Made by a program: the position numbers. Shown here piece after piece: positions 35,940 through 38,900 of a DNA stretch of 64,000 bases. Numbering within the stretch: the stretch's first letter is position 1; every line of letters begins with the position of its first letter. Origin of the DNA: Vulcanimicrobiota bacterium (GTDB lineage Bacteria > Vulcanimicrobiota > Vulcanimicrobiia > Vulcanimicrobiales > Vulcanimicrobiaceae); assembly GCA_963723515.1 (NCBI GenBank), contig CAVRQT010000003.1, forward strand, positions 704,001 to 768,000, in the 5' to 3' direction.

Positions 35940-38900
35940 AATCCTGAGCCAGGATCAAACTCTCCATAAAACATTTTTTATGGAGCCGTTGTTGGCTCTA
36001 TAAACTTGTACGATCGAACTCGCTGTTGTGATGAACCGGTGGAGCCGGAGCTCACTTCGAATTCGATTTAAAAAATCTCACTGAACAAAAAGAAAAAACG
36101 CCTTTACGGCGCTTGCGTCTTTTTGGTCGGGAGACCCACAGACTTATGCGCTACTGCACTGTTCAGTTTTCAAGGAACGAACGATTGGCCCCGACCACGT
36201 CGACCGACCTACAAGCTTTAAGAGTTGAGGACGGTGGGCGCATTGGCTCCAGAGTCACGACGACCAGTATATAGGAGCGCCCTAGGGGCGTCAAGGTAAC
36301 GCGACACGCGTCCTTGTGGAGAAACGCTCGCGCGATCGCCCTTTATAACCCGGCGGCGGTCTCCGTCGTTGCGGTGCGGCGCCGGCGCCGTTGCGCCTTT
36401 GCGCGGTTGCCGCATACGGCCATGTCACACCATGCGCCGGACCCATTTTTCGAGTGATCGTAAAACGCCCAAAGGCAGGTGTGTTGCCGGCACGCTTTCA
36501 ACCGGCGCCACGTTCCGGTGCGAAGCGCATCATAGATGGCGGCCAAGAGCCGTCCCATCGCCTGCTGTTCGCCCGAGCCGCTCGCGGCTAGCGAAGCATC
36601 CCCCGGTGTTGGGCCTAAACACATGCGTAACGGCACATGCTGTCCGAGCGCCCGGACCTGCTCCCAGCCGGCGGCCGGATCGGCTTCGCCCGTGTGGGAG
36701 AGCAGCGCGGTCCGAAGCGCTTCACGAAATTCACGCAAGCGCCCCGTGGCTGAGGGGTCAAGCGGCGCGGTTTCCTCTAGTAGGTCGTTGTCTCGCAGCC
36801 AAGCAGTCGCCGTTTCCGGCGTTGCAAGGTGATCTTCGGGTTCGTCTGTGTGGCCTGAGTTGACGAACCGGCGGACGCGCTCGAGTTCTCCCGGCGCGGT
36901 GGCATCCTTAACGCCCATCGTTGTGTGCATACTATAGCACCACTAAAGCGTGTTGACAAGTTACTCTAACTACCGTACAATCTTAAGTGGTTACTGACAA
37001 AATACATAGAAAGGTTAAAATGATGGCAGACCCTCGTCCAACAATCCCTCTCGTGCCCGAGCTGATCGACATCACCCGACGCATCCCGGGCCACGGTGCC
37101 GACGATGCGCTCTTCGGTGGCTGGGGCGTGCGGTTGCCCTTCGCGATCCCGCGCTAAGGGGCGAAGGGAGCTACTCTTAAACAATTAGTTGACAATCAGC
37201 TATGGCGCCCCTATACTGCTCTTAAAGAATTAGTTTTAATAAAGGAGTGCGCCATGGTTGATCCCCGCCCGACGATTCCCTTAGCGTTGCAAGCAATCCA
37301 TCGCCGGCACATTATCCCGCCGGCTGACGATGCGTTGTTCCGCGGGTGGGGCGTGCGCTCGCTCTTCTCGATCGGTCGTTAGATCACAGAACGCGTCAAG
37401 GCGTGCCCGGCAGCAGCTTATGGGCAGTTGCAGCCGGCACGCCTTTTTGATTAGCTAACGTAGATCTCAGAATCCCTCGGCCTCTTCACCGGCGTCTTTG
37501 GCGCTCACTTTGGCTGCAACCGTCTTGGCTTGTAAGAAGAGTAAGAGGTAATCGTGACTCCCGGCTTTTGAATCCGTTCCCGACATGTTGAATCCGCCGA
37601 ACGGATGAGCTCCCACCATTGCGCCCGTACACTTCCGATTGAGATACAGATTGCCGACGAAGAACTCATCGCGCGCACGTTCGAGCTTGCGCGGGTCTTT
37701 CGAGTAAACCGACCCCGTTAGGCCGTATTCAGTGTTGTTTGCGATCCGCAGCGCATCATCAAAATCTTTGGCCTTAATCACCGCAAGCACCGGGCCGAAG
37801 ATCTCTTGTTGTGCGATCGTCGCATCGGGCGCCACATCCGCGATCACGGTCGGCTCGATGAAGTACCCAGCACCGCCGCTGCGGCGTCCGCCGGTCAGCA
37901 AGCGCCCTTCTTTTTGGCCGATCTCGATGTAGCGGCCGATCGAGGTCGCTGCGTTCTCATTGATGACCGGCCCCATGTAATTCTTTTGCTCGACCGGATC
38001 GCCGACTTGAATTTTACCGACACGATCCTGTAAGCGCGAAACGAATTCATCGTAGATCTTCTCGTCAACGATGGCGCGCGAGCACGCCGAACACTTCTGG
38101 CCTTGAAATCCAAAAGCGGAAACGGTGACGCCTTCGACTGCGGCGTCGAGATCCGCGTCGGCCGCAACGACGATCGAATCTTTGCCGCCCATCTCGGCGA
38201 CGACGCGTTTGATCCATTTCTGTCCCGGTTGCGGCTTCGCCGCCAGCTCGTTGATCCGCAAGCCAACTTCCTTCGAACCGGTAAAGGAAATGAAGCGCGT
38301 CTTCGGGTTTGTGACCAGCGCATCACCGATTGTCGAGCCCGAGCCGGGCAAGAAGTTTAAGACGCCTTGCGGCAATCCCACTTCTTCAAGCAAGTCGACA
38401 AAACGAGCCGCAATGACGGCTGAATCGCTCGAAGGCTTGAGCACGACGGTGTTGCCGGCAACGACAGCTGCAGTCGTCGTTCCCGCCATGATTGCAAACG
38501 CAAAGTTCCACGGCGGGATCACTACGCCGACGCCAAGCGGGATGTAGCGCAACTCGTTCTCTTCGCCGGCGATCGGCTCGACCGGATGTGGGCCGTCGTA
38601 GCGCAGCGCTTCGCGCGCGTAAAATTCCAGAAAGTCGATCGCTTCAGCCGTGTCGCCATCGGCTTCGGGCCACGTCTTGCCAACTTCGTACACGAGCAAC
38701 GCGTCGAATTCGAAGCGGCGTTCGCGAATGCGCTGGGCGGCTTTGAGCAGATAGCTTGCGCGCTCCGAAGCGCTGACATTCTTCCACGTTTCAAACCGGC
38801 GGGCTGCCGCGTCGATCGCGCGATTCGCCTGCTCGAGTGCCGCCGAAGCGACCAGTCCAACAACTTCCTGCGGATTGGCCGGATTGATCGACTTGATCCA

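What a model noticed while it worked through the whole genome (the two positions that open the first line are those of the whole stretch)
36343..37382. Conserved 43-aa microprotein and repeat operator facing an ABATE/CGNR zinc-finger regulator
A 42-46 aa protein of no known family is encoded head to head with the ABATE/CGNR zinc-finger gene (g02017); here it is duplicated (C3:741020, C3:741254). Its strong sigma-70 promoter carries a conserved GTTAC direct repeat, one copy just after the -35 box and one at the start site. This gives a first candidate operator and target for the uncharacterised CGNR regulator family.
Evidence so far: Peptide found in 6 of 40 relatives; in all 7 genomes the CGNR gene is the divergent neighbour, whatever lies further out. 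Alignment of 8 peptides keeps RPTIPL...RLR...ADD.LF...G..LP. TTGACAAGTTAC-N24-25-GTTAC/GTTAG in 7 of 7 promoters; the motif occurs at only one other place in this genome.
(Added by a program. Inside this text positions count along the whole contig: contig position 704,001 is position 1 of the stretch shown here. "Call 12" and the like, gene names such as g00115 and contig names such as C1 are that model's own, and its searches are not shown. The text may have been shortened before it was handed on; [...] marks where a part breaks off. The agent that wrote the report below was given it as the finding of a first reader that could run no searches.)

Follow-up and report, generated by a model that had tools for sequence, protein, structure and literature searches.

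The report
Microprotein shared by many stress regulons
The tiny protein beside this zinc-finger regulator belongs to an undescribed family that one class of soil bacteria places right behind the promoters of several unrelated stress regulators, and the regulator's probable DNA site is a pair of widely spaced palindromes.

Summary
(1) The 'GTTAC direct repeat' is the right halves of two tandem inverted repeats, T(A/C)ACY-N17-RGTTA, laid over the divergent promoters. A DNA-only scan of GTDB gave 112 hits; 108 lie beside an ABATE/CGNR gene, and the unsearched left half-site appears in 106. This scan already noted a CGNR operator on other DNA (e1-2377447, e1-1488213); I found none in print. (2) The peptide is not CGNR-specific. 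It belongs to a 34-48 aa family with a C-terminal FxGWG motif, found in 188 of 232 genomes of one class and 0 of 130 outside it. This genome has seven copies: at CGNR, ahead of ytrA, padR, ada and two other units, and copy 2, whose promoter carries the box seen at 28 of 30 blaI loci. ytrA has the peptide upstream in 30 of 30 loci. Stand-alone copies are under purifying selection. Best guess (0.35): the motif acts in the ribosome tunnel at the peptide's own stop codon, as apidaecin does; the two window copies have a longer tail, which counts against this. No binding is shown.

The parts
36343..36930 (-). ABATE/CGNR zinc-finger regulator gene; the real start is probably the second ATG (36918), since the first ATG abuts the -10 box (inference)
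   Evidence: Pfam PF07336 + PF11706; AlphaFold model pLDDT 93.6 whose only match at E<=0.001 is 3h0n
36931..36959 (-). Promoter of the CGNR gene (TTGTCA-17-TATAGT, extended -10)
   Evidence: T-A--T pattern conserved at this offset in the 29 aligned promoters
36937..36963 (.). Operator 1: GCACC-N17-AGTTA; encloses the -35 box of the peptide promoter and abuts the CGNR -10 box
   Evidence: left half N(A/C)ACY in 106 of 112 hits although it was not in the search pattern
36967..36993 (.). Operator 2: TAACT-N17-GGTTA; encloses the -10 box and the predicted start site
36953..36981 (+). Near-consensus sigma-70 promoter of copy 1 (TTGACA-17-TACAAT)
   Evidence: 11 of 12 consensus matches
37020..37157 (+). 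FxGWG microprotein, copy 1 (44-45 aa, nine residues after the motif)
   Evidence: pN/pS 0.27 (last 22 codons) and 0.14 (next 12) against its orthologue in L037
37177..37188 (.). BlaI-type box 1 (YTAA-N4-TTAG) directly before the -35 of copy 2
37189..37217 (+). Promoter of copy 2 (TTGACA-17-TATACT)
   Evidence: 11 of 12 consensus matches
37222..37233 (.). BlaI-type box 2, 45 bp after box 1, over the predicted start site
   Evidence: the same 45-bp pair occurs at only three places in the genome, one of them the promoter of the blaI-like gene; both boxes kept in L037
37254..37382 (+). FxGWG microprotein, copy 2 (42 aa), with its own ribosome-binding site
   Evidence: orthologue in L037; similar proteins P0042, P0045
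37398..37445 (.). Strong hairpin followed by a T run, probably the terminator between copy 2 and the convergent gene
   Evidence: fold of 37383-37470, -34.8 kcal/mol; same hairpin in L037; not called by the strict terminator scan
37467..39071 (-). Convergent aldehyde dehydrogenase gene (boundary, not part of the module)
   Evidence: Pfam Aldedh

Best explanation
Regulation. A CGNR dimer binds T(A/C)ACY-N17-RGTTA, one zinc finger per half-site. Two sites 30 bp apart cover the -35, -10 and start of the copy 1 promoter and abut the -10 of its own gene, so it most likely represses both until an unknown signal reaches the ABATE domain (site 0.85, repression 0.75; sequence pattern shown, binding inferred). 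Copy 2 is under the genome's BlaI-BlaR1-like system instead (0.8; inferred from boxes). Product. Both copies belong to a class-wide family of unfolded 34-48 aa proteins with a variable N-terminus and a conserved end (R-hydrophobic-P ... L/I-F-x-G-W-G-[PVI]-[RK]-[ILFV]-stop). The gene is a portable first cistron, fixed ahead of ytrA and at CGNR promoters and recruited here and there ahead of blaI, padR, ada and others (shown). As its regulators are unrelated, it probably acts on one shared machine, not on each regulator (0.6; inferred). I commit to the terminating ribosome: the nascent peptide lodges in the exit tunnel at its own stop codon, which would gate the weakly initiated regulator gene coupled 1-20 bases downstream and, from stand-alone copies, slow translation in trans (inferred, 0.35). 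The two window copies are a derived subfamily with a nine-residue tail and may have a changed activity.
For: 108 of 112 motif hits have a CGNR gene on the divergent side (77 of 80; 31 of 32); the three misses among the 80 lack the left half-site. Two actinobacterial loci show both half-sites changed together (ACACC-N17-GGTGT; L388, L390). Jann_2411 is a dimer with a basic zinc finger (PMC2954205). Twin site unique in the genome. BlaI-type box at 28 of 30 blaI loci, 0 of 30 ytrA, 0 of 30 ada loci; paired at three places in G000; blaI and M56 peptidase confirmed. FxGWG occurs 8 times in the six frames of G000, 7 of them near the end of short frames, against 0-2 for 11 permuted motifs. Upstream of ytrA 30 of 30, blaI 7 of 30, padR 2 of 2, ada 1 of 30. 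101 of 123 distinct ends stop exactly three residues after GWG; 90 of those 101 fit [PVI][RK][ILFV], against 0.6% of 1556 long frames. Apidaecin ends P-R-L, its last two residues contact release factor and tRNA, and its N-terminus is free to vary (PMC11347161, PMC11549390). Stand-alone copies: pN/pS 0.10 over the last 22 codons (5 sequences). Regulators behind a peptide have weaker predicted ribosome-binding sites: blaI median -5.8 (n=7) against -9.3 kcal/mol without (n=23); ytrA -4.2 against -7.3 for its peptide. No fold predicted (pLDDT 65, pTM 0.17).
Against: No binding, expression or arrest is shown. The apidaecin likeness rests on three residues; the conserved PRPPH part is absent. 22 of 123 ends, including both window copies, have longer tails, and a large CGNR-linked subgroup has lost GWG yet stays conserved (pN/pS 0.38, 12 sequences). 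8 of the 101 short tails lack the basic residue or vary it (92 have R/K). An unrelated helical peptide (hhalign probability 0.4%) fills the same slot at many CGNR loci. In a wider CGNR sample only 10 of 42 upstream regions had an exact site. The 112 hits are not independent: many are kin, and some repeat loci. The stop codon is not conserved (TAA 43, TAG 34, TGA 21).
Confidence: 0.35

Rival explanations
1. Same regulation, but the free C-terminal motif binds a shared soluble protein (a protease, chaperone or RNA polymerase/sigma factor) and tunes it during any stress.
For: Fixed distance to the C-terminus, no fold, selection on stand-alone copies, copy 2 kept under BlaI-type boxes although the blaI gene lies elsewhere. 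C-terminal degrons and PDZ ligands end in hydrophobic residues (recalled).
Against: Does not explain the tight coupling (gaps of 2-20 bases in 28 of 30 ytrA loci) and weak downstream ribosome-binding sites. No partner identified.
Confidence: 0.25
2. The peptide is a co-repressor, anti-repressor or ligand of its own regulator (for example filling the cavity of the ABATE dimer), closing a feedback loop.
For: Always first behind the operator; CGNR-linked members of family f1 have diverged in their own way; Jann_2411 has a deep dimer cavity (PMC2954205).
Against: One motif would have to bind GntR, BlaI, PadR, AraC, STAND and zinc-finger proteins; many CGNR loci regulate a transporter or enzyme with no peptide.
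Confidence: 0.13
3. It is only a translational-coupling leader: a well-initiated short frame delivers ribosomes to the next gene, and GWG codons are kept as a Shine-Dalgarno-like sequence nine bases before the junction.
For: Gaps of 1-20 bases and weak downstream sites; GGN-TGG-GGN is G-rich and at a fixed distance from the stop.
Against: Gly codons follow genome usage (second Gly GGC 55, GGA 21, GGG 14, GGT 8 of 98); F and the tail are kept through synonymous change; copies followed by a hairpin and a convergent gene are still under selection, including both window copies.
Confidence: 0.13
4. The palindromes are bound by CGNR as an activator, or by some other factor.
For: No binding data; 32 of 42 wider CGNR loci lack an exact site.
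Against: Sites cover -35, -10 and +1 of a near-consensus promoter; 108 of 112 hits are beside CGNR genes, and no other shared neighbour was seen.
Confidence: 0.1
5. The peptides are dispersed precursors of a modified natural product with an aromatic core.
For: Variable N-terminus, conserved F/W core, several copies per genome.
Against: No maturase or exporter among the neighbours that I scanned (67 proteins chosen from the lists), apart from one convergent TfuA-like gene (L279); neighbours are regulators and stress genes.
Confidence: 0.04

Closest known systems
Jann_2411 / ABATE + CGNR zinc-finger family (PDB 3H0N, PMC2954205)
   Same: Both Pfam domains, four zinc cysteines, fold match, proposed ligand-sensing dimeric regulator.
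   Different: The parts of the paper I read name no DNA site or target; here a twin inverted repeat and targets are proposed.
TetR/TetA-type divergent repressor modules (recalled)
   Same: Regulator head to head with its target, two palindromes over overlapping promoters, local regulon.
   Different: Zinc-finger protein; half-sites 17 bp apart (16-19 in other subfamilies); target here is a microprotein.
Bacillus subtilis YtrG, first gene of ytrGABCDEF (PMC13729164)
   Same: About 45 aa, first cistron ahead of ytrA.
   Different: YtrG is one transmembrane helix; this family is soluble and unfolded and also heads other regulons.
Type II proline-rich peptides (apidaecin; PMC11347161, PMC11549390)
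   Same: Conserved C-terminus with penultimate basic and last hydrophobic residue, free N-terminus.
   Different: Insect antimicrobials, proline-rich; no FxGWG; arrest shown there, only inferred here.
Termination-arrest leader peptides PepNL (PMC11890864, abstract) and TnaC (recalled)
   Same: Short upstream frame whose sequence matters at its own stop codon.
   Different: Each serves one operon; no sequence likeness seen; this family is shared by many operons and also stands alone.
BlaI/MecI-BlaR1 systems (Pfam Penicillinase_R, Peptidase_M56)
   Same: Repressor and M56 peptidase genes with paired boxes over -35 and +1.
   Different: Box is YTAA-N4-TTAG; regulon here includes a microprotein.

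Membership tests
ABATE/CGNR family | ABATE and zf-CGNR domains above Pfam cut-offs | tested here: met
   48.4 and 59.1 bits against 24.4 and 24
ABATE/CGNR family | Four zinc cysteines with Asp and Arg of the finger; 3h0n fold | tested here: met
   C147, C152, C168, C173, D158 invariant in 84 sequences; 3h0n only match at E<=0.001
Divergent one-component repressor module | Palindromic sites over the promoters of regulator and target | tested here: met
Divergent one-component repressor module | Binding, repression and release by a ligand | not testable with these tools
   needs gel shift and reporter assays
BlaI regulon (copy 2) | Same box as at the promoter of the repressor gene, in the same positions | tested here: met
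YtrG | Single transmembrane helix | tested here: not met
   no long hydrophobic stretch in alignments A2/A6; model has one four-residue helix
Type II PrAMP (apidaecin-like) | Penultimate R and terminal hydrophobic residue at a free C-terminus | tested here: inconclusive
   met in 90 of 123 distinct ends with R or K; not met in the two window copies
Type II PrAMP (apidaecin-like) | Conserved proline-rich C-terminal octapeptide | tested here: not met
   absent from A2 and A6; so not a member, at most works like one
Ribosome-arrest leader peptides | Co-directional gene under its control | tested here: inconclusive
   present at ytrA, blaI, padR, ada loci; absent at the window and at f3 stand-alone copies
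Ribosome-arrest leader peptides | Sequence-dependent stalling | not testable with these tools
   needs toeprinting or profiling
Any curated protein or RNA family for the peptide | Match to Pfam, NCBIfam, PDB sequences or Rfam | tested here: not met
   Pfam: nothing above cut-off for the two window copies; NCBIfam 1 weak hit in 35; PDB 0; Rfam 0

The most novel reading that the evidence does not exclude
One bacterial class encodes its own apidaecin-like termination-arrest peptide and has wired copies of it into the head of many unrelated stress regulons, so that envelope, antibiotic or DNA-damage signals all feed one brake on the ribosome that also gates synthesis of the repressors themselves.
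Probability: 0.27. Interest if true: 0.93.

Novelty: new variant of a known kind. Interest (0 to 1): 0.8.

Why it matters
The operator gives a widespread, uncharacterised regulator family a precise, testable DNA site, with spacer length (16-19 bp) varying between subfamilies, so its regulons can be mapped. More unusual is the microprotein: one conserved family reused as first gene by at least six unrelated regulator types and also kept as a stand-alone product. I know no precedent (own knowledge; searches showed none in their listings). If it arrests termination it would be a bacterial counterpart of an insect antibiotic mechanism and can be tested in a purified E. coli system with a synthetic gene.

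Tried and rejected
No RNA holder was listed for 36300-37500. ESM Atlas: only unnamed clusters at 0.91 for copy 1 and no usable hit for a canonical member; neither shows novelty. The metagenome locus search could not use alignment A2, so metagenome context is unseen. Direct-repeat reading rejected (left halves conserved). A genome-wide CGNR regulon rejected for G000. RNA-level explanation of GWG disfavoured. Homology between this family and the helical slot peptide rejected; the helical peptide gave one strong match in each of 3 of 5 genomes, all at the training loci, and two marginal ones, so I cannot say it heads other regulons. Homology to YtrG rejected on topology. Ada linkage is not general (1 of 30; about half of those 30 hits match only the C-terminal part of Ada). 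Literature: searches found only the structure paper, reviews and passing mentions (one seen: a table row in PMC9976334); the library lacks most subscription papers and I read no supplements, where binding-site tables from large transcription-factor surveys could lie.

Full report
Setting. The window is G000:C3:704001-768000. Named records that carry the same promoter and peptides are mostly labelled Eremiobacterota/Vulcanimicrobiota, so I infer that lineage. The module sits between an rRNA operon and a convergent aldehyde dehydrogenase gene.

Observation. The regulator has ABATE and zf-CGNR domains, is the only CGNR gene in the genome, and its model matches only Jann_2411.

The operator. A relative was found in 44 of 61 genomes. 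Aligning 29 of the 30 fetched promoters on the -35 box (one locus lacked the gene's 5' end) showed four conserved blocks: (T/G/A)CACC or TAACY at -16, RGTTA at +6, TAACY at +14, RGTTA at +36. These are two inverted repeats with 17-bp spacers and a 30-bp period. I scanned GTDB with a DNA pattern that left out the first block: 112 hits. 77 of the 80 with long flanks have a divergent CGNR gene within 400 bp, and 31 of the 32 short ones have a CGNR match; the miss ends 153 bases upstream. Titles name Actinomycetota, Chloroflexota, Dormiibacterota, Eremiobacterota, Trueperaceae and others. The omitted block reads N(A/C)ACY in 106 of 112 and in none of the three loci without CGNR. The hits are not independent: many are kin and some repeat loci. 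In a sample chosen by protein only (31 loci plasmid records from the 52; one dropped for short flank), 10 of 42 upstream regions had an exact site, all with spacers of 16-19, against 0 of 42 downstream and about 0.8 in shuffles. So the site reaches Streptomyces, Bacillus mycoides and Caballeronia, but 32 of 42 lack an exact copy; two of these show both half-sites changed together. In G000 the twin site is unique. The sites cover a near-consensus promoter, which suggests repression (inference). PMC2954205 (parts 2 and 3 of 4 read) reports a dimer, a basic finger and a cavity, and names no site. Earlier notes of this scan reached a similar operator on other DNA; they are not independent evidence.

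What the operator controls. Of 87 first ORFs behind the promoter, 33 match the peptide family, 36 are other small proteins, mostly an unrelated helical type, and 18 are longer. Among 12 plasmid loci the divergent neighbour was an MFS or EamA transporter in 5 and an enzyme or other protein in 3. The peptide is thus one target among several.

The peptide family. Alignment A1 found 88 of 201 phylum genomes; its 30 best loci all face a CGNR gene. Weaker hits lay elsewhere, in frames of 42-55 codons. I fetched 60 such regions. They are first genes behind other regulated promoters: ahead of GntR/YtrA-like and Penicillinase_R genes, and beside BTAD, XRE-NB-ARC, LuxR-TPR and ECF sigma genes (Pfam on 67 neighbours chosen from the lists). 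The broader alignment A6 matched 188 of 301 genomes: 164 of 206, 1 of 3 and 22 of 22 in the three families of the class plus G000, 0 of 69 in the rest of the phylum and 0 of 61 in another phylum. Protein searches gave 57 clusters, 54 of them 36-59 aa, and 308 proteins whose listed names are only 'hypothetical' (lengths 18-83 only, so fusions are unseen). No curated family matched.

This genome has seven. FxGWG occurs eight times in six frames; seven lie 3 or 9 residues before a stop: the two window copies and copies ahead of ytrA, padR-HAAS, ada, a DUF6249 gene and a unit with an HTH_34 gene. The last frame is interrupted, as is the gene behind it, which suggests assembly errors. Tests that start from the regulator: ytrA 30 of 30 (loci fetched from 45 matches), blaI 7 of 30 (from 61; all seven in one genus), padR 2 of 2, ada 1 of 30.

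Copy 2. Its promoter has two YTAA-N4-TTAG boxes 45 bp apart. Such a pair occurs at three places in G000, one being the promoter of the blaI-like gene next to an M56 peptidase; the box lies upstream of 28 of 30 blaI loci and of 0 of 60 ytrA and ada loci. Locus L037 keeps both copies, both operator types and the hairpin at dS of about 1.1. So two repressors each drive one copy, and neither copy has a gene behind it.

Mechanism. The peptide has no predicted fold. 101 of 123 distinct ends stop three residues after GWG, and 90 of these end [PVI][RK][ILFV] (background 0.6%). The set was chosen by the motif, but the 30 ytrA leaders were not and all carry it. Codons vary synonymously. Stand-alone copies are under purifying selection, pN/pS 0.10, so the product or its translation matters without a downstream gene; yet coupled regulators have weak ribosome-binding sites and gaps of 1-20 bases in most cases, so a cis role is likely too. 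Arrest at the stop codon would serve both. Apidaecin does this with a penultimate Arg, a terminal Leu and a free N-terminus (passages of PMC11347161 and PMC11549390); PepNL is a bacterial leader that arrests at its stop (abstract of PMC11890864). The likeness is three residues deep, the window copies have nine-residue tails, and a GWG-less CGNR subgroup is still conserved (pN/pS 0.38), so I give this 0.35. YtrG fills the same slot in B. subtilis but is a membrane helix (part 1 of 5 of PMC13729164). TetR/TetA, TnaC, degrons and the label 'WYL-like' for L194 are recalled or read by eye, not from a call.

Unpublished genomes. Rows from G009, G048, G059 are in A1, A2, A3, A6 or the tallies; the second padR case rests on G059 alone; 2 of the 30 ytrA loci are G048 and G059; 4 loci are G403 and G386; the tallies include G020, G022, G029, G030, G234, G252, G306. 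The main claims hold without them, except padR 2 of 2, which becomes 1 of 1.

Verdict. Real. The operator is well supported and was seen before by this scan; the shared microprotein family and the second regulator at copy 2 are new here (look-ups returned nothing on it). Interest 0.8.

Noticed in passing
G000 C2:201485 region (L289): The FxGWG frame and the membrane/HTH_34 genes behind it are interrupted by frame changes, probably assembly indels; a palindrome-rich promoter lies upstream.
   Followed up: partly
G000 C2:270567 (L285): Third member of the BlaI-type regulon: same box pair ahead of a 754-aa secreted or outer-membrane-like protein.
   Followed up: partly
L014, L020, L027, L030, L228, L231: In family f3 the two promoters are further apart; by eye a third operator lies over the CGNR -10 box and a conserved GTCCC element lies between the promoters.
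   Followed up: no
L388, L390 upstream of CGNR: Variant operator ACACC-N17-GGTGT with a helical small protein behind it; useful for a finger-to-site code.
   Followed up: partly
L062, L071, L035, L041, L066: The helical slot peptide is fused to the N-terminus of an EamA transporter or of an unannotated 135-150 aa protein.
   Followed up: partly
L195, L196, L197, L205, L207, L237, L278: Stand-alone copies share repeats of the type TTCTCCGTAC ... CCGTG ... CCGATT upstream, often near LuxR-TPR genes: a probable activator site.
   Followed up: no
L282: Operator, peptide and CGNR gene in the same direction, an autoregulated operon like peptide-ytrA.
   Followed up: partly
L194: A near-identical copy of the CGNR-type peptide with its upstream hairpin sits after a glyoxalase gene facing a WYL-like regulator, suggesting the cassette moves as a unit.
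   Followed up: partly
L003, L007, L012, L034, L173, L184: A glyoxalase/VOC-like gene often starts a few bases after the CGNR-linked peptide, in several genera.
   Followed up: partly
L037, L064, L077, L112, L143: Record titles (Acidobacteriaceae, Alphaproteobacteria, Acidiferrales, proteobacterium, Verrucomicrobiia) disagree with a peptide otherwise confined to one class; probably depositor labels or misbinned contigs.
   Followed up: no
G319 C14:497546 and 497749: Another tandem pair of family members about 200 bp apart.
   Followed up: no
window 36918-36936: The CGNR start codon lies only a few bases after its -10 box here and in many relatives, so the mRNA is probably leaderless or nearly so.
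   Followed up: partly
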